IMG/VR virus record: IMGVR_UViG_3300012979_000027
Coordinates: 1-64,000 of that record
Length of the DNA stretch: 64,000 bases
Strand: one strand, 5' to 3'
Source: a virus
Lineage: Duplodnaviria > Caudoviricetes
Under the pieces are notes generated by a model, which worked only from the letters and a program-made list of their open reading frames with translations, did not search any database and was not told the origin of the DNA. Positions 1,227-32,164 of this stretch are shown one piece after another; the stretch's first letter is position 1; each line of letters begins with the position of its first letter. Position numbers and translations under genes: made by a program.

Positions 1227-1285
1227 ACGATACTTATTTTTGGATTCACTTTGCAGGTGAGTAAAAATTTTGCTGTATGTATCGT
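1227..1285 (-). ncRNA. CATACAGCAA-scaffold RNA with Cys-type anticodon loop
   Basis: Closing stem ACGATAC/GTATCGT; inner hairpin TCAC-CTGCAAA-GTGA. Confidence 0.65.
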
Positions 1286-1288
1286 TAG

Positions 1289-1363
1289 TACCCGCAGTTT
1301 GATTCGAACAAACGACCTCCATCTTGTAAGGATGGCACTCTAGGCCAACTGAGTTATACGGGC
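1289..1363 (-). tRNA. tRNA-Val(TAC)
   Basis: Cloverleaf; anticodon arm CCATC-CTTACAA-GATGG. Confidence 0.9.
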
Positions 1364-1370
1364 ATAAACT

Positions 1371-1428
1371 AGGCACCTTAACCATTCTGTTTAAAAGACA
1401 GGAGTTTATATAATTGCTGTATGTGCCT
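1371..1428 (-). ncRNA. CATACAGCAA-scaffold RNA with Lys-type anticodon loop
   Basis: Closing stem AGGCAC/GTGCCT; inner hairpin CTGT-CTTTTAA-ACAG. Confidence 0.65.
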
Positions 1429-1478
1429 TCTAACTTCAGCTTCCACTGTTTAATCGACAGGTGCTGTGTGTTAGTGAG

Positions 1479-1561
1479 TACGGAGAACAGGACTTGAACC
1501 TGCACGAAGTTTCCTTCATAACGTCCTTAGCGTTACGTGTCTACCATTCCACCATCTCCGC
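1479..1561 (-). tRNA. tRNA-Leu(AAG)
   Basis: Long variable arm; anticodon arm TAACG-CTAAGGA-CGTTA. Confidence 0.85.
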
Positions 1562-1571
1562 ATCTGAGTTA

Positions 1572-1748
1572 TTTATCGACCATACCCTATAACTAGTTTT
1601 ATCCGGTTATAAGACGCTCATTACTGTCGCCATGGACGTAATCAACGGATTACGCTCCCCATGGATATGTGTAGTTTTTCTAAACAATCATGTTCGCCTC
1701 AGCTACCAAAGCACCTGCATTCTCACAGGCTTAGTTGCAACACTGTAA
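1572..1748 (-). ncRNA. Candidate structured ncRNA, ~175 nt
   Basis: Hairpins (CCATGG..CGTAATC/GATTACG..CCATGG; TATAAC/GTTATA), no ORF, CAGAAC-N5-TAAATA motif at 1752-1769. Confidence 0.4.
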
Positions 1749-1785
1749 AATTTATTTAATGTTGTTCTGATTTAAATTTTAGTAG

Positions 1786-1858
1786 AGCCGTCGGCGGGAC
1801 TTGCACCCGCACAAGAGAGTCGGAATTCCTCTATTCTAACTACTTAAATTACAACGAC
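1786..1858 (-). tRNA. tRNA-Gly(TCC), atypical T-loop TGCAAGT
   Basis: Cloverleaf; anticodon loop ATTCCGA. Confidence 0.7.
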
Positions 1859-1865
1859 TTATGAA

Positions 1866-1938
1866 TACGGATGACTGGAATCGAACCAGCTAAATGCTCC
1901 TTGGAAGGGAGATGCAACAACCATTATGCGCCATCCGT
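1866..1938 (-). tRNA. tRNA-Gly(TCC)
   Basis: Cloverleaf; CTCC-CTTCCAA-GGAG; T-loop TTCGATT. Confidence 0.8.
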
Positions 1939-1965
1939 ATTATGCTAGTATTTACACTAGCATTT

Positions 1966-2187
1966 TTATTGAAGTTTATTACCGTCTGCATCATGCGTTA
2001 CGAAAATAGCTTCACACACATTAAGCACAAACATAAACCAACTAAGCCAACCAAAAGTAACAAGTGTCAATATAAGCTGACAAATACCTCTAAAATTATG
2101 GCCAGCATAGAAATTATGAATACCAATTTGCCCAAGCACAATAGCAAGAAGGACAAACAACCATCGCCTACGTTCTAAATTATCCAT
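1966..2187 (-). CDS. TM2-domain membrane protein
   Basis: LLAIVLGQIGIHNFYAG...GICQLILT matches the TM2 signature. Confidence 0.85.
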   Translation of the reverse strand: MDNLERRRWLFVLLAIVLGQIGIHNFYAGHNFRGICQLILTLVTFGWLSWFMFVLNVCEAIFVTHDADGNKLQ

Positions 2188-2641
2188 GATTTATATCTAA
2201 TTGTATATCCTTGTTCTGGGGATTATCTAAGTTAATTCTCATTTCAGTAGGCATTTCCTCTACTTTAACTCTATTATTGCAAGAGATTCCACAACAAATA
2301 GCTGAAGCAAAAAGCGCTATAAAAGCAGAAGCAGCAATACTAAAACCCAAATAATTATTAGAAGATTTATTTTCTCTTTCCGCTTTAAGATTTTCTACCT
2401 CTCTTTCTAAAGCATCATACTTATTTTGAAGACTAATAATATTATCTCCGTAAGAACCAATGGGATAACAATACTCACTAAGGTTATCTATTTTGTTCTT
2501 TAACTTTTTTTCTACATTTTCAATATCATCCTTTAATTTTTCAAAATGATATAACTTATCGTGAATTTTATCAACTGCTTCATAAAGCTTAGTCATATCA
2601 CCATAAAGGTTATAAACGCTATCATATAGGTCTTTATCCAT
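2180..2641 (-). CDS. Coiled-coil protein with C-terminal TM helix
   Basis: ORF; C-terminal DNPQNKDI shared with 2680..3495. Confidence 0.8.
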   Translation of the reverse strand: MDKDLYDSVYNLYGDMTKLYEAVDKIHDKLYHFEKLKDDIENVEKKLKNKIDNLSEYCYPIGSYGDNIISLQNKYDALEREVENLKAERENKSSNNYLGFSIAASAFIALFASAICCGISCNNRVKVEEMPTEMRINLDNPQNKDIQLDINHG

Positions 2642-2679
2642 AATTCTAATTTAAGTGTATTTTCTCTCGAAAATAATTT

Positions 2680-3495
2680 TTAATTATTAACTTGTAAATC
2701 TATATCTTTATTTTGTGGGTTATCAACAGTAATACCGACCTGTTCAACCGTTTCATGCGAAGATACACTATTAGTATTTCTAGTTGTTTCAGTAATAAAA
2801 AAACCTGTCATAATAACTGCCCAAGTTAAACATATAAAAACCAAAGGCAATAAAATTCCAATAACAGTCTTATCTCGCGGAATTCCTCGACATCTATCCT
2901 CAAGATGATTAATCTTTATTTTCAAAGCGTCAGTAAGAGATTCATAATAATCTTTAGCTCTCTTAGAATCTTTGATAGTTTTTTTAGTAGAATCCCACAC
3001 TGATTTTTCTACCCATACTAAATCAGGCTTATGAAGCTTATCTTTTTCCTCGCGTAACTTAAGAATTACTTCCTGATAAAAGAACATCGAAAAGCGTTCT
3101 TCAAGAGATGCACATTTAGATAAAAAGTCACAAACTGAAGGAAAATCAACCTTTTTTACATATTCCTTATATTCGTTACATATAGTAAAATCTATACTTT
3201 TACCCCAAATATACGGTTTTTTCGAAAGACATTGCCAAATTGCTTTAGTAACCGGACCAAATCTTGCATCATCTATTTCAATAAAATGAAGAGCAAAATT
3301 TACAAGTTCAGGCGAAGATTGAAAAAATGCTAAAAAATGTCGAGCTGTTGGTTTTGTCCAAAGTGAGTCTCCATTGTAATCTACAACAAACGGGTCACCG
3401 TTAGTCCATTTAATATAGGCATTCGCTATAATAGCACCGAGTTTATCATTTGATGTTTTATTTTCATCAAATGTATCATCAGAAAATACAATCAT
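2680..3495 (-). CDS. Membrane-anchored hypothetical protein
   Basis: 271-aa ORF, TM helix, DNPQNKDI tail. Confidence 0.8.
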   Translation of the reverse strand: MIVFSDDTFDENKTSNDKLGAIIANAYIKWTNGDPFVVDYNGDSLWTKPTARHFLAFFQSSPELVNFALHFIEIDDARFGPVTKAIWQCLSKKPYIWGKSIDFTICNEYKEYVKKVDFPSVCDFLSKCASLEERFSMFFYQEVILKLREEKDKLHKPDLVWVEKSVWDSTKKTIKDSKRAKDYYESLTDALKIKINHLEDRCRGIPRDKTVIGILLPLVFICLTWAVIMTGFFITETTRNTNSVSSHETVEQVGITVDNPQNKDIDLQVNN

Positions 3496-3501
3496 ATAAA
3501 A

Positions 3502-3792
3502 TTAAAAACAAATAATTATAATACAAAGAATAAGAGTAATAATAGTAACAGTGACTCCAAGTATAGGAATAATGGGTCTTTGAGTATAGCAATTCCAAAT
3601 ATAATTTAAACCAATATTAATTGCACTTAAAATGAATAAAATACTAATTATAATTTGAGATTTAACAAATGTAATTATTGCTAAAGAAAGAAAACATATT
3701 AATCCCAAAATTAGCATCGGAAGAGACTTTGGGTCTAAAATAAAGCTTAACCCATCAACAAATCCCTTTAAAAAAGCTTTAATATAATTCAT
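3502..3792 (-). CDS. Small multi-TM membrane protein
   Basis: Hydrophobic ORF directly behind an ACAGAAC promoter cassette (3793-3816). Confidence 0.75.
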   Translation of the reverse strand: MNYIKAFLKGFVDGLSFILDPKSLPMLILGLICFLSLAIITFVKSQIIISILFILSAINIGLNYIWNCYTQRPIIPILGVTVTIITLILCIIIICF

Positions 3793-3830
3793 AAAAATTA
3801 TATAAACTAGTTCTGTTTAATTTAAAGACA

Positions 3831-3916
3831 CGGGTCTCTGAGGTCCCGACCCCCATGCCATTGCTGGCACACGCCGCTTTCCAAGCGGGTATCGATGCCC
3901 ATCGATTTAAAGACCC
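3831..3916 (-). tRNA. tRNA-Ser(GGA), 8/4 fold
   Basis: 8-bp acceptor GGGTCTTT/AGAGACCC, 6-bp D stem with 4-nt loop, long variable arm, 4-bp T stem. Confidence 0.8.
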
Positions 3917-3922
3917 AAAATA

Positions 3923-4008
3923 CGGGTTGCTGAGGTGCCGCCCCCCAATGGTTTCACCCATCCACCTGTTTTCAAGACAGAGGTCGGAGCTGTCCGACGT
4001 AACAACCC
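3923..4008 (-). tRNA. tRNA-Ser(TGA), 8/4 fold
   Basis: 8-bp acceptor GGGTTGTT/AGCAACCC, D stem GTCGGA/TCCGAC, loop CTTGAAA. Confidence 0.8.
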
Positions 4009-4057
4009 AAAGTTAAGCTAGACTTAATTATCTGCTCTGCCACCTTTCCTAATTCCA

Positions 4058-4131
4058 AGGCTCGAGTTGGATTTGAACCAACGAATGTCGATTTTGCAAA
4101 CCGATGCCTTAAACCACTTGGCCATCGAGCC
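4058..4131 (-). tRNA. tRNA-Cys(GCA)
   Basis: Canonical cloverleaf, U73. Confidence 0.9.
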
Positions 4132-4242
4132 GTTAATACTTATTACTTACCTTAGTTCTGATTATAATAAAAGTAATTAACAATTCATGGAAAATGTATA
4201 ACTTAATATCATCTATCGTTCATTATGAATATATTTATTATT

Positions 4243-4278
4243 AAAAAAAAAAGATTCAGGAACCACCCTGAATCTTTA
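4243..4278 (-). terminator. Intrinsic terminator
   Basis: AAAGATTCAGG/CCTGAATCTTT plus T-tract. Confidence 0.75.
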
Positions 4279-4337
4279 ACAACCAAAAACCATGACGTTT
4301 CCGCCACAAATAACCAAAATATATTTATCAAAAATTT

Positions 4338-4943
4338 TTAATTATAACGATAATTTATTGTATTATCTACACCGACACCTGAAACGGAAGTATCAGATTT
4401 AATAGAATAAAGAGAAATATACTTATGATACTTTACTCTTGCTCTTTGTGTGGCAGCTTCTTTATCATCACCTTCAGCAAGTGCTTTCTTATATTCAATC
4501 TTAGCAGAACGATTAGCCATTTTTTTACAAACTTCTGCATATTCAGTTAAATCGCAATCTCTTGCACCAATTTCATTAATAATATTAGCTGAAGTTTTAT
4601 GCCAAGAAAAATTACTATCATCTCCTAATTCATTTTCAAGATAATCATGAACTTTATCAGAAGCATCTTGAAGATTTGCAGAAGAAGGAAGTTTTCCAAA
4701 AACTACATAACCATCTTCTTGAAGAATTGCAATAAAACGCATCGCTTTTTTAGCATGGCTAATTGGCGTAGTAAATGCATTTTCATTAGGAACTTTTATT
4801 TTTGCTCCAGTCTTGGGGTCTGTCTTTAACATCCAATATCCAGGACCACCAAAATTAGGAATACCGCCTGCAAGATAATCTCTCATAGCGATACCATTCA
4901 TATCCATCGCTTCTGTTAAAAAATATTCTTTAAAACTTTGCAT
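4338..4943 (-). CDS. Probable internal head protein
   Basis: N-terminus MQSFKEYFLTE resembles T4 capsid-targeting peptides; TAAATA upstream. Confidence 0.65.
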   Translation of the reverse strand: MQSFKEYFLTEAMDMNGIAMRDYLAGGIPNFGGPGYWMLKTDPKTGAKIKVPNENAFTTPISHAKKAMRFIAILQEDGYVVFGKLPSSANLQDASDKVHDYLENELGDDSNFSWHKTSANIINEIGARDCDLTEYAEVCKKMANRSAKIEYKKALAEGDDKEAATQRARVKYHKYISLYSIKSDTSVSGVGVDNTINYRYN

Positions 4944-4966
4944 AATATGAATTTATTTAACAAGAC

Positions 4967-5054
4967 CAGAGACTAATGGAGTCGAACCATTTCGGGTCTC
5001 TTAAACCCGCCTATCGGTTAGCAACCGAAGCCCTTACCGTTCGGGCAAGTCTCC
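4967..5054 (-). tRNA. tRNA-Ser(GCT)
   Basis: Long variable arm; TCGG-TTGCTAA-CCGA. Confidence 0.85.
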
Positions 5055-5060
5055 AAAAAC

Positions 5061-5169
5061 AAGATTCATTTATTGTCAGATTATAAGTCTGATGCTTAAC
5101 CATTAAGCGTAATAGTCAAATACTATTCTTGGAATCGAACCAAGTTCAATGGATTGCTGTAGGAATCTT
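5061..5169 (-). ncRNA. CCTACAGCAA-scaffold RNA enclosing a circularly permuted tRNA (anticodon TAT)
   Basis: Order is T arm, loop-closed acceptor stem, D arm, anticodon arm TCAGA-CTTATAA-TCTGA, inside stem AAGATTC/GAATCTT. Confidence 0.75.
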
Positions 5170-5205
5170 TTTAAATTATGTATAACTGCTTGATTATCAA
5201 GCATA

Positions 5206-5278: not shown

Positions 5279-5284
5279 AAAATC

Positions 5285-5360
5285 TAGACGCGTATTTTAG
5301 TAGGCCATACCAAGCCCAAATATATGTTCAGTATATTATATAGTTTGCAGTATGCGTCTA
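5285..5360 (-). ncRNA. CATACTGCAA-scaffold RNA, inner hairpin ambiguous
   Basis: Stem TAGACGC/GCGTCTA; inner TGGGC-TTGGTATG-GCCTA. Confidence 0.55.
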
Positions 5361-6773: not shown

Positions 6774-8723
6774 TTAAGCCTGAGGGGCAGCTGCTGTCTG
6801 ATGAACAGGATAGCTGAACTGCTGAGTATCGGTAGGAGTCATATCCTTAGCGATAGCAGGAGTAATATAACCGGCCGGATATACTTTGCGAAGACCTTCT
6901 GGAATACCAGGCTGAGCAAGAGAATCAATGATGATGCAGTGATAATAAAGCTCTGCGCCGAAAATGTTGTCAAGTACACCATAACGGGTCATGAGACCAA
7001 CCTGAGGTGTGAAGTCAACTGGGTTAACGGCTTGCTGAACCATAATCGGAATGTATGGGCAATAGATGATACCAGCATCATAGGATTCAGCACCCTTATA
7101 ACCGAGCAAGCAGTAGTTAGGAAGCTGAGAATCAGACTTCTGGAACATACCTTCATAACCGTAACCATAGTCAGAACCGTCATAAACAGCTGTACGAGTA
7201 TCAACATATACGGAGAAACGAGAACCACCGAGAGTACCAACCTTAGCAGTAGCCATGTTAGCAGTAGAAACAGAAGACTGAGCAGGCATTACAGTGAATT
7301 CATCGAGAGTCTCAAGAAGAGCAGCAACGTCAGGAGTACATACGATGAAGTTAGCCGGACCACGACGGTTGCGAGTCTGCATACGGATGGACATCTTAAC
7401 AAGGTGCTGATAGAGGGCACGATTACGTTCACCCATCCAGCGAGCATCAGCGAGAGTAGCGTCCCAGAGAGACCACTCATTCTTGCTAAGGCAGCTGTAA
7501 AGCATGCGAACGGTCATTTCACGATCGATTTCAGCCTGAAGTTCATAGCTCATCTGCTGAGTAGCTTCCTGTTCGATGTCGATACCATTAGTATTCTTGA
7601 GGTCCTCTTCAGTCTCAAGTGTCCAGGAGGTGCTGAGACGACGAGTACCAGCTTCTACAGAGCACTTCTCGAAGCCGAAAGAAGTCTTAGCGATAGCGCC
7701 AGTGCCTTCATACTGCTGCATGAGAGTAGCGATACCAGTATCCTCTGGACGGAATCTCCAACGACCACCTGCAAGAGCCTCACCAAGGCGAGCGTCGGCG
7801 CGACCAGTGAAACGGGTATCAAGCTTCTGATAACCCATTTCGGCGGACTCCATTGTCTCAAAAAGGTTACGGTCCTTACCATCAACAAGTTGTTCGCTAT
7901 GGTTCCAAGAAGAAACACCAACAACAGAAGCAGTACCGCCAGCAATTGGGAACTTATAACCAAAAGGAACAGTTACGCAATCATTTGCAGAAACTGCAAT
8001 AAGTTCAACTGTCTGAGCAGTAGGATAGCCCTGACCATCAATAAGAGAAAGTGTACCCTTACCAGCAGTGCGCTTAGTAGCATCATCATTCCATACAGGA
8101 GCATCATCTACCTTAAGAGTAGCCTTAGTCTCAATACCCTTAATGCCATGAGCAGGATAAACCGTATCCTGATAACCCTTAGCATAACCTGGGAAATTAG
8201 GATTAGTGTTCTTAGTTGTCATATCATAACCACCATCAGGATGAAGAGTAGTCTTAGTGGCATCAGCTGCATGAACATGCTTAGTATCGGAATCACCAGC
8301 GTGAAGAGCACCCTTGAGGTACTTGTAACGAAGAGCAAAACCAAGAGCTACAGGACCCGGCATCGGCTGAACACCAACAACCTCATTGGACATAAGGGCC
8401 GGATAGATACGACGAACCATTGGGATAAGGATGCGAGGAAGGCGGTTGTCACCAGGAGCATAACCATCTGTAGCATTAAGAGCACCACCTTGAAGACCGT
8501 TCTGAGGTCCGAAGATGGAGGTATTAGTAGCAGCCTCCTTAAGGTAACGATACTGGTTCTCAAGGAGCATAGCGGTAGACTCCTTAGCAGCCTTAGTGCG
8601 AATAGCACCGAAGTCCTTAGTATTCTCAAGGAGACGCTTCCAGCGGAATACAGCCTTCTTGGTGCGTTCACCATTTTGCTGTGTCAACGTCTTTTTGAAA
8701 TTTTCTTTATCAATTAAAGCCAT
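6774..8723 (-). CDS. gp23: Major capsid protein, T4 gp23-like
   Basis: Motifs LLENQ, IPMVRR, VGVQPM, EIDRE, YKG..YDAGIIYCPYIP, F.P.VGLMTRYG. Confidence 0.97.
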   Translation of the reverse strand: MALIDKENFKKTLTQQNGERTKKAVFRWKRLLENTKDFGAIRTKAAKESTAMLLENQYRYLKEAATNTSIFGPQNGLQGGALNATDGYAPGDNRLPRILIPMVRRIYPALMSNEVVGVQPMPGPVALGFALRYKYLKGALHAGDSDTKHVHAADATKTTLHPDGGYDMTTKNTNPNFPGYAKGYQDTVYPAHGIKGIETKATLKVDDAPVWNDDATKRTAGKGTLSLIDGQGYPTAQTVELIAVSANDCVTVPFGYKFPIAGGTASVVGVSSWNHSEQLVDGKDRNLFETMESAEMGYQKLDTRFTGRADARLGEALAGGRWRFRPEDTGIATLMQQYEGTGAIAKTSFGFEKCSVEAGTRRLSTSWTLETEEDLKNTNGIDIEQEATQQMSYELQAEIDREMTVRMLYSCLSKNEWSLWDATLADARWMGERNRALYQHLVKMSIRMQTRNRRGPANFIVCTPDVAALLETLDEFTVMPAQSSVSTANMATAKVGTLGGSRFSVYVDTRTAVYDGSDYGYGYEGMFQKSDSQLPNYCLLGYKGAESYDAGIIYCPYIPIMVQQAVNPVDFTPQVGLMTRYGVLDNIFGAELYYHCIIIDSLAQPGIPEGLRKVYPAGYITPAIAKDMTPTDTQQFSYPVHQTAAAPQA

Positions 8724-11444: not shown

Positions 11445-13601
11445 TTAGGTGGGACGAACGAATGCGCGAAGAGAAGAGAGCCTCGGTTGAAGTTTCATTA
11501 CTTTTTTATAAGCAGACTCGATGAACTTTGCCTGTTGTTTTTTAGTTGCTCGGGGGATAGTATCATCATTATCAAACTCATTTTTAAGACGTTGCATGTC
11601 AGCAAGGAAACCCGGAAGCTCTTTAAGATAAGGTACTTCAAAGTGAATCTTAGCATCGGGCGCCTTGAGAAGTTGATATACTTTTTCACGTTTTTGAAAA
11701 CCGGTAATTAACTTCAAGAACTCTGCAATACGACTCATAAATGCATCCTGAGATTTCCAGTAGGCTTTCTTATTTTCTGCCCAGTTGAAATTAGTCGCTC
11801 CGTACTTATTACCATTAATTTCGAATACGATACCCTCTACCTCTGAATCCGGAAGACCGAGAACTGAGCCCTTCTTACAGATTTCTCTGGAAAATGCATC
11901 AGCGATTGCCTGACGAAGTTCCTTAAAGTGCGGCTTGCATTCCTTAGTAAGAAGAACTGATGGCTCCTGGAATATGCGATTCATCATTTCGGTATCATAA
12001 TCTATAAGAATGTCTATCTGACCCTTCCAGGCAAAATTAGTGTCATCATAAATCCTGAATTCCGGATTAGAAAGACCCTTGAATGACTTGATAATATCCT
12101 TCTTGACATTATCCTCTAATTTTATGAGTTGACCGTCCGGAGAGATACCAGAAACATCAAATATTACCATCGCCCCGATTCTTCCCATCTTTTTCGAGTC
12201 ATATTTAGTTGCTACGAATGTTACACCAGAATCATCGTCCACAATTTCGGGGTCATTCATATAAAAGAGCTCACCTGTAATCTTATACCAGGAATTGGCG
12301 CGTTTTGCAATGGATAAGAGATTAGATGATTCCTGATTCTGAAAATAAAGAAGCGTCTCTCTGAAGGATTCCTGACGCGTCGCCCCCGGATTGAATACTA
12401 CACCGGAATATGAAGATTCGATACCGATTTTACCATCATAACATATGATACGTACTCCCTGTCCGTCTGCCTTCTCGGAAGTATTAAATTCCGAAAGGTC
12501 AAACTTCTTAGAATCAATGACGCCTCTTTCCTTCAAAGCATTTAAGAACTCAATGAACTCATCCACCTTCATCTGATGAATCTTTGTCATCGACTTGCGC
12601 GGACTATCAAAAGTAGTCTGAGAACGCTCCCAGAGTAAAGAAGATTCATTTAACGGGGAATTAACAAACTCATCAAAGTACGGCGGATAATCTATACCGG
12701 ATTTCGTGAGAGACTTGATTGTATTTTGAACGATACGTTTACGCGCCTTCGGATAAGGAAATTCAGGAGCCATCATCGCATCCCAAATCTGCTTCGCCGA
12801 AATTAAATCATCCGGATTAACATCCTTACCGAAAAATAATTTTGCAATCGCCTCCGGATTAGATTCAATCAACTCACGACCGATTGTCCATTTATTCGCT
12901 TTACGTTTACCAGTCTTAGGACTGAGAAAAGACTGTTTAATACGATAAAGTCCCTTCATGCCATTAAAAATAGTACGTTCAAATTCCAAATCTTCAATTT
13001 CCCCGGTCAACTCATTCGCCTGCTGCTTCAGGGCCTTATAATCTATCTCATTCGCAATCCAATAAAGAAGTTCACCGCGAACCGCTCCTTTATACTGTTC
13101 AACAGACTGATGAGGAGAAGCCATCCCCCACGCAGTCATCTTTAAATTATCAGAAGGCATAATATCCAGCTGAACAGTTGCACCCTCCTGCTGACCATCA
13201 ATATTAGAAATCGGAAACCCGATAGAAACAATTCCGAGTCCCTTAAGATAATTGTACGGATAACCCAGACGCTCCGCACATTGTACCAGAAACTCATAAA
13301 GCTCTTTATTATCCTTCAGACGATTAACTCTCTTAATAACATTAGCATCCACTGCAAGGTCCATATCTCCCGAAGTACCGCCAGGAAGTTTCTTACCCGT
13401 AGAACCCAGAAGAGCAGTATTAGTCTTAGTAATACCCAAGAGAGGAAGAAGTTTCTTATAAACCTCATCCATCGTCGCTTTGACATTCTCTTGATTAATA
13501 CGAGAGACGCCTTCAACTGCATTTCCACCTTCTGTAATAAGAGAAATCTTCCCGCGTATCGGCGCGTGTGAAAGTATCTTATGAATTTCTGAGATTAACA
13601 T
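11445..13601 (-). CDS. Two-domain protein: pol-beta-family nucleotidyltransferase plus ligase-like (KxDG) domain
   Basis: LLGSTGK..SGDMDLAV, VQLDIM; SEKADG, TGELF, EGIV; ITE/GGN and LNE candidate cleavage sites. Confidence 0.7.
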   Translation of the reverse strand: MLISEIHKILSHAPIRGKISLITEGGNAVEGVSRINQENVKATMDEVYKKLLPLLGITKTNTALLGSTGKKLPGGTSGDMDLAVDANVIKRVNRLKDNKELYEFLVQCAERLGYPYNYLKGLGIVSIGFPISNIDGQQEGATVQLDIMPSDNLKMTAWGMASPHQSVEQYKGAVRGELLYWIANEIDYKALKQQANELTGEIEDLEFERTIFNGMKGLYRIKQSFLSPKTGKRKANKWTIGRELIESNPEAIAKLFFGKDVNPDDLISAKQIWDAMMAPEFPYPKARKRIVQNTIKSLTKSGIDYPPYFDEFVNSPLNESSLLWERSQTTFDSPRKSMTKIHQMKVDEFIEFLNALKERGVIDSKKFDLSEFNTSEKADGQGVRIICYDGKIGIESSYSGVVFNPGATRQESFRETLLYFQNQESSNLLSIAKRANSWYKITGELFYMNDPEIVDDDSGVTFVATKYDSKKMGRIGAMVIFDVSGISPDGQLIKLEDNVKKDIIKSFKGLSNPEFRIYDDTNFAWKGQIDILIDYDTEMMNRIFQEPSVLLTKECKPHFKELRQAIADAFSREICKKGSVLGLPDSEVEGIVFEINGNKYGATNFNWAENKKAYWKSQDAFMSRIAEFLKLITGFQKREKVYQLLKAPDAKIHFEVPYLKELPGFLADMQRLKNEFDNDDTIPRATKKQQAKFIESAYKKVMKLQPRLSSLRAFVRPT

Positions 13602-18951: not shown

Positions 18952-19980
18952 TTACTTCATCTTGGCACAGTAATCATCGGACTTAGCCTTGTAGCTCCAG
19001 GACTCACCATTGAGCACCTTACCCTCACCCTCCGACACGGGCTTGGCAGAAAGCTCAAAGAGCAAATCCATGGTCACCACGGCTTCACCAATCACCGGGA
19101 CAGTGGGAATCGGGGCAAACCCAAGCTTCCCGAGCTTCTCATTCACATCCAGGAAATGCCAACCGGACTTGTAACGACCCTTGCGCTTGCGGTCATCATC
19201 GGCCTCAGGGAATCGTACACCGTACATGGCAAATCCCAGAGGCTGCTTGGCGTCCTGATTCACCTTGTGGCCATTGATACCGTTTCCGTAGATTTCACCA
19301 CGAATCGCGACAACCTCTCCCAGGTTCTTTGCCAGAGCCTTCACATGGGGAATGTACGGAGTAAGAGCCTTGATGTAGTTGTTCTCAATTGGCTGGCCCA
19401 TGTCATTCAGGGTCTTCAGGGTCAGGCTTCGAGAGCAGAACTCCAGCTTATCCTGATGTGGGTCGTAGTAGAGGACCGCAGAAGAACCATCGACCTTATG
19501 GGTGATAAGAGCAGTCTCACCGAGGTGAAGCTCGTGCTCCTTCATAGTCTGCCAGTTCTCCTCATCGGACTTCTCAATTCCCGGAGGAAGGTTCCCCTTT
19601 GCATCCTGGGCCTTGCAGGGTCGCTCGTAGTGGGTGATTCCCAGAGCCTCACAAACGGCTACAGAGTTCTCCAGGTCCACACCAGCAAGCTCCTTCTCCA
19701 GCTCCTTCAGAGACACCACCAGACCTCGGGACATAACACCACGGAGTCGGACGTTTTTCACACGGTCACCGTTACCGAGGTAGTTGCGGTATGGCTGCAC
19801 CCAATCACGGGTCACATCCAGCTTAGCATCCTCCTCAATCTTCAGGACTTTCTCAAATCGCTCGAAAACTCCCTTGGCGATTACACACTGGGAAGAACGC
19901 ACAAAGCAAATCTCCAGTCGGTCGGCATCAGGGTGCGGCTTAATAATTCCAATCTTATCTACAAAAGCGTCAGTTGCCAT
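18952..19980 (-). CDS. RNA ligase, DRB0094/Rnl5-like, with N-terminal OB domain
   Basis: HPDADRLE, RLRGVMSRG, KSDEE, THKVDGSS, RGEIYG.GI, EGKV, SYKAKS. Confidence 0.9.
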   Translation of the reverse strand: MATDAFVDKIGIIKPHPDADRLEICFVRSSQCVIAKGVFERFEKVLKIEEDAKLDVTRDWVQPYRNYLGNGDRVKNVRLRGVMSRGLVVSLKELEKELAGVDLENSVAVCEALGITHYERPCKAQDAKGNLPPGIEKSDEENWQTMKEHELHLGETALITHKVDGSSAVLYYDPHQDKLEFCSRSLTLKTLNDMGQPIENNYIKALTPYIPHVKALAKNLGEVVAIRGEIYGNGINGHKVNQDAKQPLGFAMYGVRFPEADDDRKRKGRYKSGWHFLDVNEKLGKLGFAPIPTVPVIGEAVVTMDLLFELSAKPVSEGEGKVLNGESWSYKAKSDDYCAKMK

Positions 19981-28314: not shown

Positions 28315-28788
28315 ATGTCCTATTCCTATATTACTAATTGGCTCCCTAAGAGTGAGGCTCAGTCCATGGTTAAGTCCCTTATCTCCGAGGGCAAGTTCAA
28401 GAAGGGTGAAATTAAGCTCAGTTCCTACCGTTGGGCCGACCTTAAGGACCACTCCAAGGGTTATGTGGCTCGAGTTCATGTCCTGACAGGTCTTCATCCT
28501 GATATGGAGCTTGGCCTCTGTGGTCGAAAGAAGAAGGCTCAGAAGGCTGAAGCTGAACCTGTAGAGGAAGTTGAGTCTGAAATGAAAACTTATACCATTA
28601 AGCTCTTCAATGCCATTGATATCAATGGTGATACAGTAAAGGAAACTTCTTTCACTCATGAGCTTTCAGATGAACAGGTTAAGTTTATCACAGAGAGCGA
28701 TGATTCCTACGGTCAGTACCAAATGATTCTGAGTTATGCCGAAGACCATGGCTTCGACGAGTTCGATGAGTTCGAACTCGTCGCCTAA
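28315..28788 (+). CDS. Hypothetical protein, GY.CRV family, acidic C-terminus
   Basis: Cassette plus AACAACACAACA leader; KLSSYRW..GYVARV. Confidence 0.8.
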   Translation: MSYSYITNWLPKSEAQSMVKSLISEGKFKKGEIKLSSYRWADLKDHSKGYVARVHVLTGLHPDMELGLCGRKKKAQKAEAEPVEEVESEMKTYTIKLFNAIDINGDTVKETSFTHELSDEQVKFITESDDSYGQYQMILSYAEDHGFDEFDEFELVA

Positions 28789-29044
28789 GTCAAAAGGATT
28801 CTAATATGAAAAAAGTTTAACAGGAAATCCCCTCCGGTTAGAGGGGATTTCTTTTTTATTATCTAAGATTGTTTGGGGTTAGTGAAGTTGTTTCAGGCAA
28901 CCGAGTTTAATTTGTACCCAGGACTTCCTATACGGCCTTGCAACTTTCAACTAGATAAAGTTGCTTCTAACCAAATAAAAAAGCCGTGTGCAATAGCCAC
29001 GGCTTAAAATAGAAGCAAATTTGTTTCAAGTTGAGTTAGCCATT

Positions 29045-29374
29045 TTAGATAGGCTGAACTAATTTGAAGTCTTGAACCCACGTATACCACGGATATTTTT
29101 TAGCGAATGAAATTGCAGACTGACTTTCGCCTTTAGAATATTCTTTATAATAAACTATATAACCGTCTTTCGTGGGGCCTGGTTCCAAATGGTCTAACCT
29201 GCCCAAACCAGATCCATCCAACCATTCTCGTATAAGTTCTGTATGAATAGGACAATAAAGCCAAGTGCTTTCTCCACTGTTTTTAGAACGAGTCTTCTGA
29301 TATTTCCTTTTCATCGCAGTCAAGTTTATTTTGGTCAGGTGAAACGATTTCAGATAAAGATTCGGTGCATTCAT
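29045..29374 (-). CDS. Hypothetical protein
   Basis: Cassette-led ATG (MNAPN). Confidence 0.7.
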   Translation of the reverse strand: MNAPNLYLKSFHLTKINLTAMKRKYQKTRSKNSGESTWLYCPIHTELIREWLDGSGLGRLDHLEPGPTKDGYIVYYKEYSKGESQSAISFAKKYPWYTWVQDFKLVQPI

Positions 29375-29490
29375 GCTTATAATATAGCGATGTTCTGTTC
29401 TACTTAAAGATAAGTTTTTGCCTAAAATAAAGTAACGGCTTAACCCACTAAAAGTTAAGCCGTTACGCATGAACAACACAACAAATAAAA

Positions 29491-29564
29491 TAGTCTCTGG
29501 GAGATTCGAACTCAGCCATTGCCCGAGTCAAAGTCGGGAGTCTTAACCATTGGACGAAGAGACT
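29491..29564 (-). tRNA. tRNA-Gln(TTG)
   Basis: CCCGA-CTTTGAC-TCGGG. Confidence 0.8.
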
Positions 29565-29569
29565 CTTAA

Positions 29570-29642
29570 GGTATAGTCGGGGAATTGAACCCACTCTCTT
29601 CGGAACCACAATCCGAGGTTTTACCACTAAACTACCTACACC
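29570..29642 (-). tRNA. tRNA-His(GTG)
   Basis: TCGGA-TTGTGGT-TCCGA; G-1 encoded. Confidence 0.85.
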
Positions 29643-29811
29643 GTTTATTATTACTTACCGCATGGAATCACTTCCGTAGCATCACAATCTTCAACCATCT
29701 CAAGTTCCCAATCTTCGGGAATAGGATACAAGTCAGGTACCTGAATGATACAGTAACAACAGGAATTAAGAACCAGTGCAGTACAAGCTAGTGTAATATA
29801 TTTAAGCATAA

Positions 29812-29885
29812 TAGCGAAGGTGGGATTCGAACCCACAACATTCCGATTTTGAGTCGGACACCTCTGCCAATTGGATTACTTCGCC
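29812..29885 (-). tRNA. tRNA-Leu(CAA) lacking a long variable arm
   Basis: TCCGA-CTCAAAA-TCGGA, short variable loop. Confidence 0.8.
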
Positions 29886-30047
29886 AGATTAAAAAGGGCC
29901 GACTTACTGGCCCTGAATCCCTTACTTAACAGGGAGAATCTTAACAGGAGCCTGCTTCTCAGTCTGAACCTGCTGCTGTTGCTGGCAAGATACCATAGCA
30001 AGGCAACCAATTGTCATTAGTGCGATTGTCTTCATCATAAAGTTTTC

Positions 30048-30125
30048 TTAATTAAGCTATTAATTAATACGCGAATAGTTTATTTCGGTTAATTGAGTTT
30101 GTTTCAGTTGAACAAGTTTATTCAA
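30048..30125. repeat. TTAATTAA tract plus 19-bp iteron-like repeats, copy 1
   Basis: TTTCGGTTAATTGAGTTTG, TTTCAGTTGAACAAGTTTA. Confidence 0.65.
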
Positions 30126-30141
30126 GATTCATGAATGAATT

Positions 30142-30345
30142 TTAGTTAAGCTCTGACTGATTAGAAGCATCCTTATTCATAGAAGCCTCCATGAATTCCT
30201 CATTAACATAATTCATTGCCTCGGTTACGAGGTCATTGTCGTGTGCTGCTGCAAGGATTACCTTCATCACAAGGTCCTTAGCCTTCTCAAAAGAATTGGC
30301 AGACATTGCCTCCATCGCGAACTCATAGATTGTTTTGTTAGTCAT
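30142..30345 (-). CDS. Hypothetical protein
   Basis: Cassette-led ATG. Confidence 0.7.
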   Translation of the reverse strand: MTNKTIYEFAMEAMSANSFEKAKDLVMKVILAAAHDNDLVTEAMNYVNEEFMEASMNKDASNQSELN

Positions 30346-30683
30346 GATTATTTTATATCTTTGTTCTGTTTGTTCTTAATTGCTTCTTCCCATGCTTCAT
30401 CTGCTTCCTTTGCATTCTGAAAGAGTGCTAGAGCACAGACTCCTGCAAGAGTTACAATAAATCCTCCAATAATAATAAGTGATGTCAAATCCATAATGTT
30501 ACAATTGTGTATGCACTAAAAAGAAAAATCCATTGAAAGTCATTCAGGCCTCAATGGATGTTATAATTTCCCAAGTCGGTGGTAGCGTATTCTCCGGTGT
30601 TGGCGGAAGAGAATTACCAAAGACCGCGGGAATCATTGTCAATGTTAGTGCGATCGTTTTCATAAATTATTGATAATAAATAA

Positions 30684-30760
30684 TCTGGACTGCAGGATTT
30701 GAACCTGCGATGAATACGAGTACCCAAAACTCGCGTGTTCGACCACTCCACCAAGTCCAG
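30684..30760 (-). tRNA. tRNA-Pro(TGG)
   Basis: CGAGT-TTTGGGT-ACTCG. Confidence 0.85.
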
Positions 30761-30796
30761 CTCTATTTTGATATTTATATAGTATCGATGTTCTGA

Positions 30797-30883
30797 TGGG
30801 TTGTTGAGGTAACGCTCCACTCGTCCGACTTCCTCTCTGTTTTTGGACAAAGGTTTTACAGACCTCCGAGAGGGAAACAACCC
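30797..30883 (-). tRNA. Non-canonical tRNA-Tyr(GTA)-like RNA without a D hairpin
   Basis: 8-bp acceptor GGGTTGTT/AACAACCC; AGGT-CTGTAAA-ACCT. Confidence 0.6.
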
Positions 30884-30899
30884 TTAATATATTTTTATT

Positions 30900-31982
30900 T
30901 TACTCTTGTTCTGAATAACCACAAAGTTTTCTAAGGGCTTTTATGGAACGTCTTTTAGACCCCATTCTAAAGTGAGGTAATTTATCCTCATCTTTGTTTT
31001 GTAAAGAGCAGCGAAGATATTTACCATCTTTACGTTTAACTCTGTTAGAAAATAATTGATTATTTTCAGCAAACCAATATCCTTCAAATCCAGGCACAGG
31101 TTTAGCACAACTTTTTACAAATGATTCATCTACTAAATCTTTATTAGCCGGCCTACCATAAGAACCTGCACAGGATTGAGAGCAAAACTTTAACTTAGTT
31201 TTTACTTCATGGTCTCGCTCATATTCTTTACCACACTTGGAACAGGTATAGATGAATTTTGGTTTGTACCCATCAAAGAGGGTTTGATAATTGTTTACTT
31301 TACCTTTATGATAAGTGCCATATTTAGAATCCACATAATCCATCATTGGTTCTAAATCTTCAATTGTAAGAATCTGAATACCTTCGGGAACAGCTGCAGC
31401 CTTTGCGTATACTAATGAAGTTGTATAACCTTTGATTTCTACTAGCTTTCCTTCTACGGTATAATCCGGAAGATATGTATGTTTTTTACCTTCAAAGATA
31501 TAAGGATAACGTTTAGTGTTACGCTCGATTGCTATATTATGGTCTTTGCAATAAATCCAATAAACAAGCTCATAGGTTGAACCGCAAAAATCACCTTTCC
31601 AATAACCCGATTTAGAACGGCCTGAGCCTTCGCGATAACCGCCACAACGAGAATACAACCCATTCTCTCGATTTTTCTGAACACTTAAAATACGCCTGCA
31701 TTCATCCGAACAAGTCTGCCTCATTCGTTTTTCCCAGGGAATCGGATTATTACATATAGGGCAAATCTTAGGTGATTTCAAATAATTCTCATATACTGGA
31801 ATCTTTCCGCCTTTGTTTGTATCCATTCCCTTCAATATTTTGGAAACTTTAGCATTTATTTCTTTTCGTTTTGCTGCAGTAGAATACGCCCTAGCACATT
31901 CTCTGGAACAAAAAGGAGATTCGACAGTTTTCGCCCAATTTCCAAAATACTCTTTATGGCAATGTTTACAAATCTTTTTCAC
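30900..31982 (-). CDS. Putative homing endonuclease (zinc fingers plus PD-(D/E)xK domain)
   Basis: Several CxxC/FCS motifs; STYE, YLPDY, VEIKG; inserted in the tRNA cluster. Confidence 0.75.
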   Translation of the reverse strand: MKKICKHCHKEYFGNWAKTVESPFCSRECARAYSTAAKRKEINAKVSKILKGMDTNKGGKIPVYENYLKSPKICPICNNPIPWEKRMRQTCSDECRRILSVQKNRENGLYSRCGGYREGSGRSKSGYWKGDFCGSTYELVYWIYCKDHNIAIERNTKRYPYIFEGKKHTYLPDYTVEGKLVEIKGYTTSLVYAKAAAVPEGIQILTIEDLEPMMDYVDSKYGTYHKGKVNNYQTLFDGYKPKFIYTCSKCGKEYERDHEVKTKLKFCSQSCAGSYGRPANKDLVDESFVKSCAKPVPGFEGYWFAENNQLFSNRVKRKDGKYLRCSLQNKDEDKLPHFRMGSKRRSIKALRKLCGYSEQE

Positions 31983-32025
31983 AATTTTATTTATATCGAA
32001 CCCTTACTTTTGGATTGATTTTTTA

Positions 32026-32099
32026 CATCCCCAGCCGGATGTGCGCCGAGCGTCTGCGGATTGAAAGTCCGCTATTCTGACTGTCTAAACTATGGGGAC
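32026..32099 (-). tRNA. tRNA-Glu(TTC), degenerate T arm
   Basis: GCGGA-CTTTCAA-TCCGC. Confidence 0.7.
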
Positions 32100-32106
32100 T
32101 TTATAC

Positions 32107-32164
32107 TAGATTCATTTATTCAGTAACCACAATACTTTATAATATAATTTGCTGTATGAATCTA
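32107..32164 (-). ncRNA. CATACAGCAA-scaffold RNA with His-type anticodon loop
   Basis: Stem TAGATTCAT/ATGAATCTA; inner AGTA-TTGTGGT-TACT. Confidence 0.65.

What the first reader, a model, noticed from the sequence alone, without database searches (positions are those of the whole stretch)
1227..32164. Five small RNAs with a shared scaffold that display different tRNA anticodon loops
Seen: five minus-strand elements inside tRNA clusters (1227-1285, 1371-1428, 5061-5169, 5285-5360, 32107-32164). Each has a 6-9-bp closing stem whose sequence differs between copies while pairing is kept, then a conserved unpaired C(A/C)TAC(A/T)GCAA, an AT-rich linker, an inner hairpin and an AATAA-like 3' strand. 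Four inner hairpins have 7-nt loops with the tRNA anticodon-loop pattern: CTGCAAA (Cys), CTTTTAA (Lys), CTTATAA (Ile-UAU), TTGTGGT (His). The His loop is identical to that of this phage's own tRNA-His. Known: bacterial Y-like RNAs (YrlA) join a Ro60-binding stem to a tRNA-mimic domain, and host anticodon nucleases such as PrrC cut anticodon loops. Inference: a protein-bound scaffold carrying swappable anticodon decoys that titrate tRNA-targeting defence nucleases or modification enzymes, possibly recycled by the phage RNA ligase. No partner gene is visible in this window.
Basis: partly seen in the sequence, partly recalled or inferred. Interest (0 to 1): 0.92.

Follow-up and report, generated by a model that had tools for sequence, protein, structure and literature searches.

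The report
Phage Y-like RNAs for Ro60-like protein
The five small RNAs are real members of a widespread, uncatalogued RNA family whose shared "handle" always travels with a gene for a Ro60-shaped protein (DUF2828), so they most likely form a new kind of Y-RNA-like particle that presents tRNA pieces during phage infection.

Summary
Observation confirmed. All five minus-strand elements share a 7-bp terminal stem (strong covariation), an unpaired (A/C)UAC(A/U)GCAA bulge, an AU-rich second helix, a variable insert and an invariant 3' G. A covariance model finds exactly these five in the 208-kb phage. The same handle occurs in many unrelated phage contigs, usually in tRNA clusters, and in bacterial chromosomes.

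The missing partner exists outside the window. Handle RNAs co-occur with a DUF2828+vWA gene (G000:155071-156663). It was present in 9 of 11 handle-bearing records. Starting from the protein, 7 of 8 contigs had handles beside it, including rtcB-[handles]-DUF2828 loci. Its predicted fold matches Ro60 (Z 22.8). The elements are therefore best read as Y-RNA analogues of a Ro60 paralogue.

Inserts are modular: AU hairpins, anticodon-like hairpins (11 observed against 0.5 expected), YrlA-like tRNA domains, a permuted tRNA (E3), even a whole tRNA.

The decoy function is untested. The Lys-like loop is conserved with compensatory stem changes, but the His and Cys loops are not conserved in relatives.

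The handle motif equals that of Dictyostelium Class I RNAs. No Rfam family reaches threshold. This scan has already noted the same pairing on other DNA (at least 22 genomes). New here are handles dispersed about 150 kb from the protein gene and the anticodon-arm displays.

The parts
1226..1285 (-). E1 handle RNA: P1 ACGATAC/GTATCGT, bulge ATACAGCAA, P2 ATTTTT/AAAAAT, inner hairpin TCAC-CTGCAAA-GTGA (Cys-like loop), 3' G. It starts 2 nt after tRNA-Val.
   Evidence: (29.3 bits, E 5e-4, not in the model seed)
1369..1429 (-). E2 handle RNA: P1 AAGGCAC/GTGCCTA (outer A.A mismatch), bulge ATACAGCAA, inner hairpin CTGT-CTTTTAA-ACAG (Lys-UUU-like loop), 3' G. It ends 5 nt before tRNA-Val.
   Evidence: 42.1 bits; the loop is conserved with a changed stem (TCGT/ACGA) in relatives L222 6825-6895 and L181 3329-3399
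5060..5169 (-). E3 handle RNA: P1 AAGATTC/GAATCTT, bulge CTACAGCAA, P2 ATTG/CAAT. The insert is a T arm, a closed acceptor hairpin, a D arm and an anticodon arm TCAGA-CTTATAA-TCTGA, that is, a tRNA-Ile(UAU)-like body opened at the variable region. It ends 4 nt before tRNA-Ser.
   Evidence: Rfam tRNA partial match 5076-5108, 26.4 bits; 30.1 bits, not in seed
5284..5360 (-). E4 handle RNA: P1 TAGACGC/GCGTCTA, bulge ATACTGCAA, two inner hairpins with no clear anticodon-type loop, 3' G. It ends 4 nt before tRNA-Ala.
   Evidence: (30.2 bits, not in seed)
32106..32164 (-). E5 handle RNA: P1 TAGATTC/GAATCTA, bulge ATACAGCAA, inner hairpin AGTA-TTGTGGT-TACT (same loop as the phage tRNA-His), 3' G. It ends 6 nt before a tRNA-Glu-like gene (32026-32099).
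   Evidence: 58.2 bits, E 4e-11; the orthologue in L223 12692-12751 has the 8-nt loop TTGTTGGT
32171..32187 (-). Promoter-like CAGAAC-N5-TATAAT, with 6 nt between the TATAAT box and the first base of E5's P1. This predicts a transcript that starts at or next to the handle.
Evidence: Inference only; no transcript ends were mapped.
18952..19980 (-). Rnl2-type RNA ligase gene (PF09414, 41.5 bits). This is context only: an RNA-repair enzyme in the same phage, not shown to act on the handle RNAs.
   Evidence: RNA ligase genes also lie 1-4 kb from the DUF2828 gene in phage contigs L248 and L249

Best explanation
E1-E5 are the cognate small RNAs of a phage-encoded Ro60-like ring protein. That protein has a DUF2828 helical-repeat domain plus a vWA domain with an intact MIDAS motif, and is encoded at G000:155071-156663 on the minus strand. 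The system is an analogue of the Ro60/Y-RNA particle.

Proposed mechanism:
1. Transcription and processing (inferred). The RNAs are transcribed with the tRNA clusters, and E5 appears to have its own promoter. They are released by the ordinary tRNA-processing enzymes, because four of the five end 4-6 nt before a tRNA 5' end.
2. Handle (shown by covariation and conservation). This is the 7-bp terminal stem with conserved A2-U71 and G3-C70, the single-stranded bulge (A/C)UAC(A/U)GCAA, an AU-rich helix stacked on it, and a 3' G.
3. Binding (inferred from gene linkage and from the Ro60 precedent). The handle is the protein-binding site.
4. Variable insert (inferred). It is an exchangeable adaptor: anticodon-arm-like hairpins in E1, E2 and E5, a tRNA body with a closed acceptor stem in E3, and YrlA-like T/acceptor/D domains in relatives. 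It brings tRNA-recognising enzymes or damaged tRNA to the ring, or occupies them.
5. Role (inferred). In bacteria the gene pair sits next to the RNA ligase gene rtcB, and in phages near Rnl2-type ligases. The most likely role is handling of damaged or cleaved tRNA during infection, either repair, quality control or interception of tRNA-targeting defence.
For: 1. Family and structure.
- Model R1 finds only the five copies in G000.
- It finds dozens of copies in unrelated phage contigs, on the same strand as neighbouring tRNAs.
- P1 covariation is strong.

2. Linkage, starting from the RNA.
- The one protein family shared by the 14-kb surroundings of four independent handle loci is DUF2828+DUF7788, encoded directly downstream of handles.
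- PF11443 is present in 9 of 11 handle-bearing records, including G000 and complete G008. It is missing from two fragments of 16 and 22 kb, and in a third fragment (G004, 20 kb) the match is below the family cut-off (17 bits).
- It is absent from 14 control genomes. Phage T4 has no DUF2828, and its tRNA region has no handles.

3. Linkage, starting from the protein.
- In 6 of them the handles lie directly upstream of the gene.
- Two chromosomal loci read rtcB-[2-8 handles]-DUF2828.

4. The protein is Ro60-like.
- The AlphaFold model has pLDDT 90.7.
- The top 12 Foldseek hits are all Ro60.
- VIA-align gives Z 22.8, rmsd 4.2 A over 413 residues against Xenopus Ro60. All Ro60 structures score Z 13-22, and vWA-only hits score 11 or less.
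- MIDAS residues D-x-S-x-S...T...D are invariant in 54 homologues.

5. Y-RNA logic.
- Known Y RNAs have a 5'/3' stem flanking a bulge that holds a short conserved motif, plus a tRNA-like module ordered V-T-AS-D (PMC4201824; PMC12135203).
- Long family members have exactly that order and give sub-threshold YrlA matches.
Against: - No binding or expression data exist. The RNA-library contigs that overlap the region come from relatives and cannot exclude DNA.
- In G000 the protein gene is about 150 kb from the RNAs, so the link for this phage rests on co-occurrence rather than adjacency.
- The handle motif is not the Ro60-binding GNCGAA/CGAA motif.
- The protein matches no TROVE profile and no PDB sequence, so the homology is structural only.
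- One of the eight protein-first contigs (L249) had only a weak match (E 0.3).
- Sub-threshold YrlA scores of this size are also reached by adjacent ordinary tRNAs.
Confidence: 0.72

Rival explanations
1. Anticodon decoys. The displayed anticodon-like loops act as bait for host anticodon nucleases or anticodon-modifying enzymes, with or without the Ro60-like protein, and so spare real tRNAs.
For: - Hairpins with 7-nt loops of the form CU-NNN-A(A/C) are strongly enriched: 11 in 55 non-redundant elements against 0.48 in dinucleotide shuffles (0 of 1000), with 2 in the reversed control.
- The Lys-UUU-like loop of E2 is kept in two relatives while its stem changes in a compensatory way. By my own recollection, not checked here, tRNA-Lys(UUU) is a classic anticodon-nuclease target.
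- U-G-U loops (Asn, Asp and His types) recur independently in L066, L248, L251, L083, L250 and E5.
- E5's loop equals the phage tRNA-His loop.
Against: - Only about a fifth to a quarter of the elements carry such a loop. Many have plain AU hairpins or T/acceptor/D domains.
- The E5 orthologue has an 8-nt loop, and the E1 orthologue lacks the Cys loop.
- Stems are only 4-5 bp.
- No nuclease, cleavage or protection data exist.
- Bacterial chromosomal copies beside rtcB argue for a housekeeping or repair role rather than a purely anti-defence one.
Confidence: 0.2
2. Protein-independent tRNA-like processing or stability cassettes. P1 plus P2 imitates the acceptor/T minihelix, with a continuous 3' strand, a 5' bulge and a discriminator-like G. 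RNase P, 3' trimming and CCA-adding enzymes would then release and stabilise whatever is inserted, and the linkage to DUF2828 would be incidental.
For: - P1 is 7 bp and is followed by an unpaired G.
- The bulge sits on the 5' strand, as positions 8-48 do in tRNA.
- The elements lie 2-6 nt from tRNAs on the same strand.
- One relative nests a complete tRNA-Arg(ACG) inside a handle (L083 6763-6876).
Against: - This does not explain the invariant ACAGCAA bulge or the conserved A2-U71/G3-C70 pairs.
- It does not explain the repeated adjacency to DUF2828 genes in loci without any tRNA (L250, L251, L253, L254).
- It does not explain the occurrence of the same motif in Dictyostelium Class I RNAs.
Confidence: 0.06
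3. Decayed tRNA genes or a DNA-level repeat (a promoter variant or a recombination site) with no RNA function.
For: - Inserts are clearly tRNA-derived.
- The CAGCAA plus AT-rich stretch superficially resembles the phage's CAGAAC-N5-TATAAT promoter.
Against: - Compensatory changes in P1 across 39 copies.
- Conservation of the handle across unrelated phages and bacteria.
- Strand-specific linkage to one protein family.
Confidence: 0.02

Closest known systems
Ro60 (Rsr) with Y RNAs: bacterial and phage YrlA/YrlB/Yrn1 (Chen et al. 2014, PMC4201824; Rfam RF02553) and Thermus phage phiLo Ro60 with Yrl1/Yrl2 (PMC12135203)
   Same: - A ring-shaped helical-repeat plus vWA protein (Z 22.8 to Ro60).
- Small RNAs whose 5' and 3' ends pair, with a short conserved unpaired motif next to the 5' strand.
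- Short and long forms of the RNA.
- Long forms carry a tRNA-like domain in the order V-T-closed acceptor-D.
- The RNA genes lie next to the protein gene and, in bacteria, next to rtcB.
- Occurrence in large phages.
   Different: - The protein belongs to Pfam DUF2828/DUF7788, not TROVE. Identity to Ro60 is 10-15%, with no sequence-level match.
- The RNA motif is ACAGCAA, not GNCGAA/CGAA.
- Rfam YrlA scores are 28-37 bits against a gathering score of 69.
- There are many copies per genome, often arrayed or scattered in tRNA clusters far from the protein gene.
- Inserts include isolated anticodon-arm-like hairpins, a tRNA body opened at the variable region, and a whole tRNA.
Class I RNAs of dictyostelid social amoebae (Rfam RF01414; Aspegren 2004; Kjellin et al. 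2021, PMC7919456)
   Same: - About 42-65 nt long.
- A short stem joins the 5' and 3' ends, with structure conserved but not sequence.
- A conserved single-stranded motif lies directly after the 5' stem strand, and the rest is variable.
- The published search pattern GTTGR-CCTTACAGCAA...GTCAACTG (PMC5054030) contains the same UACAGCAA as E1, E2, E3 and E5.
- There are many gene copies.
   Different: - The RF01414 model does not match E1-E5 (best 11.3 bits on E2, gathering score 41.5).
- The amoebal RNAs start with an invariant G, end in CUGU and have a 5-6-bp stem.
- They have a eukaryotic promoter (DUSE).
- Their reported binding protein is the RRM protein Rnp1A.
- They were reported as unique to Dictyostelia.
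- No link to DUF2828 was tested here.
T4 species 1 and 2 RNAs (rnaC, rnaD)
   Same: Stable small RNAs of unknown function, encoded in a T4-type phage tRNA cluster and co-processed with tRNAs (annotation).
   Different: They have no handle. Model R1 finds nothing in the T4 tRNA region (best 11.4 bits), and T4 has no DUF2828 gene.
Circularly permuted tRNA genes of the red alga Cyanidioschyzon merolae (from my own recollection; not checked here)
   Same: E3 and the V-T-AS-D relatives have tRNA arms in a permuted order, with the acceptor stem closed by a loop.
   Different: - Acceptor loops are 3-6 nt and contain no CCA.
- Breakpoints differ between copies: at the variable region in E3, and between the D arm and the anticodon arm in L083a and L007.
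- Most family members have no tRNA body.
- Nothing suggests maturation into a chargeable tRNA.

Membership tests
Y RNA / YrlA (RF02553) | 5' and 3' ends pair in a terminal stem | tested here: met
   7-bp P1, 92.7% paired, compensatory changes at 6 of 7 pairs
Y RNA / YrlA (RF02553) | Ro60-binding motif GNCGAA(N)G / CGAA near the 5' end | tested here: not met
   The motif is (A/C)UAC(A/U)GCAA. The YrlA consensus acggCgaAU aligns to ACAGCAAAU with two G-to-A differences.
Y RNA / YrlA (RF02553) | tRNA-like domain in the order V, T arm, closed acceptor stem, D arm | tested here: inconclusive
   Present in relatives (L007, L024a, L051b, L083a/b, L222a/d, L223b, L251, L254). E3 has T, closed acceptor, D and anticodon arms. 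E1, E2, E4 and E5 lack it, as YrlB does.
Y RNA / YrlA (RF02553) | Reaches the Rfam gathering score | tested here: not met
   No hit on the window. Relatives score 28-37 bits against 69, a level that tandem tRNAs also reach.
Y RNA / YrlA (RF02553) | Encoded with a TROVE-domain Ro60 gene | tested here: not met
   PF05731 is absent from G000 and from 7 other handle-bearing phage records. The linked gene is instead the Ro60 structural homologue DUF2828.
Dictyostelid Class I RNA (RF01414) | Short terminal stem plus an adjacent conserved motif CCUUACAGCAA, a variable remainder, about 60 nt | tested here: inconclusive
   The architecture and 8-9 of the 11 motif letters are shared. The invariant 5' G and the CUGU 3' end are not.
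Dictyostelid Class I RNA (RF01414) | Reaches the Rfam gathering score | tested here: not met
   The best match on any of the five is 11.3 bits (E2) against 41.5.
tRNA (RF00005) | Cloverleaf with a free acceptor end, found by tRNA finders | tested here: not met
   ARAGORN calls none of the five. Rfam tRNA matches only positions 10-42 inside E3, at 26.4 bits against a gathering score of 29.
Ro60 (TROVE + vWA), for the partner protein | Helical-repeat ring plus a vWA domain with MIDAS | tested here: met
   Whole-length structural match, Z 22.8, rmsd 4.2 A over 413 residues to 1yvp_A. The top 10 hits are all Ro60. D338, S340, S342, T410 and D442 are invariant.
Ro60 (TROVE + vWA), for the partner protein | Matches the TROVE sequence family (PF05731) | tested here: not met
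   No PF05731 match. Pfam assigns DUF2828 and DUF7788 to the four homologues scanned, PF11443 matches the G000 gene itself, and its nearest database homologues carry both families. A profile search against PDB sequences finds no Ro60.
Ro60 (TROVE + vWA), for the partner protein | Binds its small RNAs | not testable with these tools
   No protein-RNA prediction or experiment was available.

The most novel reading that the evidence does not exclude
The helix-plus-ACAGCAA handle is the universal ligand of DUF2828 Ro60-like proteins across phages, giant viruses, bacteria and eukaryotes. On this reading the long-unexplained Class I RNAs of Dictyostelium are Y-RNA equivalents of this second Ro family. 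In large phages the handle has been turned into a display platform that presents anticodon arms and tRNA bodies, in order to intercept or repair attacks by tRNA-cleaving defence systems.
Probability: 0.3. Interest if true: 0.92.

Novelty: new variant of a known kind. Interest (0 to 1): 0.8.

Why it matters
- It gives a testable function to a very large orphan protein family. DUF2828 has more than 5,800 database relatives at E 1e-5 or better, and none of the five papers in the held library that mention it assigns a function.
- It defines an RNA family absent from Rfam 15.
- It extends the Ro60/Y-RNA principle to a second, sequence-unrelated-looking protein clade with its own RNA code.
- It offers a concrete candidate partner for the Dictyostelium Class I RNAs, whose mechanism has been open since 2004.
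- For phage biology, it shows that tRNA clusters of large gut phages hide modular tRNA-mimic RNAs. These probably belong to the contest over tRNA integrity between phages and bacterial defence.
- The 7-bp stem plus 9-nt bulge is also a compact natural scaffold for displaying RNA modules.

Tried and rejected
- Rfam at gathering and at E up to 5: nothing but tRNAs. The weak RAGATH-36 match (27 bits against 70) is tRNA-driven.
- blastn of the region or of E5 against 50,697 phage records: no true match. The phage is only a distant T4-type relative, with gp23 about 31% identical.
- TROVE and RtcB genes in the phage: none.
- T4 rnaC and rnaD: not related.
- R1 in 150 sampled Bacteroidota genomes: only the phage-like contig already known (strict filters, so weak evidence).
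- YrlA model in the same genomes: many sub-threshold hits, partly tandem tRNAs. The 28-bit hits on our family are therefore not specific. The likely true Bacteroidota YrlA copies carry GUUACUUCG, not ACAGCAA.
- RF01414: no significant match.
- Profile search of the DUF2828 alignment against PDB sequences: no Ro60.
- Sequencing runs: only low-share holders, all kept as contigs. One RNA-library contig from a 90-95% relative spans E3, tRNA-Ala and part of E4. It cannot show ends, strand or even transcription.
- The crude count of anticodon-type loops against the reversed pattern over all possible hairpins (12 against 7) was inconclusive. The stricter shuffle test replaced it.
- A self-cleaving ribozyme, an integron attC site, a CRISPR-repeat mimic and a promoter were considered by eye and dropped for lack of any matching consensus.
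- Burroughs and Aravind 2016 (PMC5062991), which may already class DUF2828 with TROVE, is not held and could not be checked.

Full report
**What is in the window.** The window is the first 64 kb of a 208-kb, about 99% complete IMG/VR phage record. The phage is a distant T4-type relative; its major head protein is about 31% identical to gp23 of cyanophages. On the minus strand, inside tRNA clusters, the five reported elements are present.

Each element reads N-A-G-N4, then (A/C)TAC(A/T)GCAA, then an AT-rich stretch, a variable insert, an A-rich stretch, N4-C-T-N, and finally G. Including the invariant 3' G, the coordinates are 1226-1285 (E1), 1369-1429 (E2), 5060-5169 (E3), 5284-5360 (E4) and 32106-32164 (E5).

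The reported loops are correct: CTGCAAA, CTTTTAA, CTTATAA and TTGTGGT. The last is identical to the anticodon loop of the phage's own tRNA-His. E3's insert is a T arm, an acceptor stem closed by a loop, a D arm and an anticodon arm. Rfam's tRNA model matches its D and anticodon arms at 26.4 bits.

**Is it more than chance?** I built covariance model R1 from 12 short copies, of which only E2 and E5 came from this phage. It recovers all five elements in the 208-kb genome (E 4e-11 to 5e-4), and the next best match has E about 1.

On 39 copies from 15 sources the 7-bp closing stem is 92.7% paired. Six of seven pairs show changes on both sides, in 51 cells. The covariation score is 0.51 against 0.16 in shuffles (0 of 500), and 0.09 or less when partners are slid by one to three columns. 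That alignment was fitted to the model. G3-C70 is invariant and A2-U71 nearly so.

The AT-rich 5' linker pairs with the "AATAA-like" 3' strand to form a second helix. This is clearest in the minimal members L045 10151-10195 and L024 1149-1197. The handle is therefore P1, a 9-nt 5' bulge, and P2.

**How widespread is it?**
- A 70%-identical head-protein relative (L007) carries a copy.
- A 15-nt pattern scan of viral contigs, followed by a stem filter, found true copies in about ten unrelated contigs.
- R1 then found further copies with other stems in the same records, up to seven in a row (L083) and five in tandem (L024).
- A 17-nt scan of prokaryote assemblies found copies only on phage-like contigs of MAGs. 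One is a 238-kb close relative of this phage (G009:C44).
- The elements lie in or beside tRNA clusters on the tRNA strand.
- In this window, four of the five end 4-6 nt before a tRNA 5' end, and E1 starts 2 nt after tRNA-Val. E5 has a CAGAAC-N5-TATAAT box 6 nt upstream.

**What the inserts are.** They are modular:
- plain AU hairpins;
- hairpins with anticodon-type loops;
- a V hairpin, T arm, closed acceptor and D arm, in the order described for YrlA (PMC4201824);
- a tRNA body opened at the variable region (E3);
- in L083 6763-6876, a complete tRNA-Arg(ACG) that ARAGORN calls.

I tested loop enrichment on 55 non-redundant elements. Close relatives of this phage, near-identical tandem copies and the two elements with true anticodon arms were left out. 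Eleven hairpins with stems of at least 4 bp have 7-nt loops of the form CU-NNN-A(A/C). Dinucleotide shuffles give 0.48 on average, and none of 1000 reaches 11. The reversed-sequence control gives 2.

The Lys-like loop of E2 is retained in two relatives with a different, still complementary stem (CTGT/ACAG against TCGT/ACGA). Loops containing U-G-U (Asn, Asp and His types) recur in independent lineages. However, E5's orthologue has an 8-nt loop and E1's orthologue has no Cys-like loop. Most family members display no anticodon-type loop at all.

**The partner.** The phage has no TROVE or RtcB gene, and neither do seven other handle-bearing phage records.

I compared all ORFs from the surroundings of the handles in independent contigs. 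One family was shared by four of them, each time immediately downstream of handles: a 480-530-aa protein with Pfam DUF2828 and DUF7788, the latter a weak vWA match.

PF11443 is present in 9 of 11 handle-bearing records. In this phage it is at G000:155071-156663, minus strand, 530 aa. It is missing only from two fragments of 16 and 22 kb. None of 14 control genomes has it. T4 has no DUF2828, and its tRNA region has no handle.

I then reversed the test and took eight diverse homologues from a database search that returned more than 5,800 relatives. Seven of the eight contigs have R1 matches with E below 1e-3 on the gene's strand within a few kb. In six, the handles lie directly upstream of the gene.
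- Two are phage contigs with Rnl2-type RNA ligase genes nearby.
- Four look chromosomal (Ruminococcus and Akkermansia MAGs and two spore-former-like contigs).
- Two of those chromosomal loci read rtcB-[2-8 handle RNAs]-DUF2828. This echoes the rsr-yrlBA-rtcBA operon of Salmonella (operon structure from my own recollection; one search lists papers on it, which I did not read).

**The protein is Ro60-shaped.** An AlphaFold model built on 54 homologues has mean pLDDT 90.7 and pTM 0.89. Foldseek's 12 best PDB matches are all Ro60: Xenopus, human, Deinococcus Rsr and Thermus phage phiLo, with E from 2e-7 to 2e-4. VIA-align gives Z 22.8, rmsd 4.2 A over 413 residues spanning residues 11-511, against Xenopus Ro60. 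All Ro60 entries score Z 13-22, and vWA-only proteins score 11 or less. The MIDAS residues are invariant in the family. Sequence methods do not see the relationship.

**Interpretation.** The features match what defines Y RNAs:
- a terminal stem;
- a short conserved single-stranded motif beside the 5' strand;
- short and long forms;
- tRNA-like modules;
- genetic linkage to a Ro60-shaped protein and to RNA ligases.

The best explanation is therefore that E1-E5 are Y-RNA analogues that bind the phage's DUF2828 protein through the handle and use the variable insert as an adaptor.

Steps that are shown: the family, its structure, the linkage and the protein fold. Steps that are inferred: binding, processing by tRNA enzymes, and a role in dealing with damaged tRNA. 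This phage has an Rnl2-type ligase at 18952-19980 and weaker ligase-like matches at 12141-12488 and G000:159784-160143.

The loop statistics and the conserved Lys-like loop favour selection on these loops. Nothing shows decoy action, and much of the family lacks such loops.

**Relation to known things.**
- Membership in YrlA fails on four counts: the motif (ACAGCAA, not GNCGAA), the Rfam score (28-37 bits against 69 for the long relatives, none for the window), the absence of a TROVE gene, and the specificity of those sub-threshold scores, which tandem tRNAs also reach.
- T4's rnaC and rnaD are analogous in location only.
- Earlier notes of this scan record the same handle-plus-DUF2828 pairing in at least 22 other genomes, both phages and giant viruses. 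They also suggested a likeness to Dictyostelium Class I RNAs. I reached the pairing independently before reading those notes.
- I then checked the Class I lead. The published pattern is GTTGR-CCTTACAGCAA...GTCAACTG (PMC5054030). The described architecture is a short terminal stem, an adjacent conserved 11-nt motif and a variable remainder, 42-65 nt in all (PMC7919456). That is the same design and the same UACAGCAA core. Rfam's Class I model nevertheless does not match E1-E5 (11.3 bits at best). The amoebal 5' G and CUGU end are absent, and no DUF2828 link in amoebae was tested.
- I found no paper assigning a function to DUF2828. Iyer et al. 2021 (PMC7824862) mention ROT/TROVE proteins with a tRNA-like partner in a few jumbo phages. 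Burroughs and Aravind 2016 could not be read.

**Verdict.** The thing is a new variant of the Ro60/Y-RNA kind: a second protein clade with its own RNA handle, not in Rfam. In this phage the RNAs are dispersed through tRNA clusters about 150 kb from the protein gene and display tRNA parts.

Noticed in passing
G000:156664-156700 (outside the window; L241 about 1876-1912, minus strand): The leader of the DUF2828 gene contains AAACAGCAA 13 nt before the ATG. A 4-bp ACAT/ATGT stem includes the start codon, giving a miniature of the handle. The same arrangement is in relatives L242 and L243 (R1 17.8 bits, E 0.16). This may be autoregulation of the protein by binding its own mRNA.
   Followed up: partly
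window 1785-1858 (minus): The tRNA that ARAGORN calls Arg(CCG) appears to have an enlarged anticodon loop containing UCCG. Earlier notes on this genome report systematic +1 recoding at CGG(A/T), so this may be a quadruplet-reading tRNA.
   Followed up: no
window 32487-32565 (minus): ARAGORN reports a tRNA of unknown identity with a 4-nt anticodon (gtga). Rfam scores it at only 33.7 bits.
   Followed up: no
window about 3830-4050 (minus); L007 10575-10652: A GC-rich, ORF-free structured stretch lies after tRNA-Cys and holds two similar units (GGGxCGGxACCTCAGxxACCCG). It is conserved in the relative L007 directly after its handle RNA. There is no Rfam match.
   Followed up: no
window about 32650-33480 (minus): About 800 nt of GC-rich, ORF-free sequence lie between tRNAs, with no Rfam match at E up to 5. 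This was also noted earlier as e1-5707441.
   Followed up: no
window about 32390-32430 (minus): GGGGCTGTAGCTCAGTCGGTTGAAC looks like the acceptor strand and D arm of a tRNA, but no recognisable 3' half follows it.
   Followed up: no
L083 6763-6876 (minus): A complete, normally ordered tRNA-Arg(ACG), called by ARAGORN at 6778-6848, is nested inside a handle (P1 AAGATAC/GTATCTT, bulge GAACAGCAA).
   Followed up: partly
L253 5190-6005 and L254 5140-5970: Chromosomal loci of spore-forming Firmicutes carry rtcB, then an array of 2-8 handle RNAs (short ones and T/acceptor/D ones), then DUF2828. This is a bacterial operon parallel to rsr-yrlBA-rtcBA.
   Followed up: partly
L251 1-10000: In an Akkermansia MAG, the handle array and the DUF2828 gene lie directly after a Cas12b-Cas4/1-Cas2 locus and its presumed array.
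   Followed up: no
L066 10904-10965, L248 9372-9461, L251 9733-9824, L083 5699-5820, L250 9743-9799, window 32106-32164: Inner loops with U33-G34-U35 (CUGUUAA, CUGUCAA, UUGUGGU) recur in independent lineages. By my own recollection, this is the recognition triplet of tRNA-guanine transglycosylase and of colicin E5-type nucleases.
   Followed up: partly
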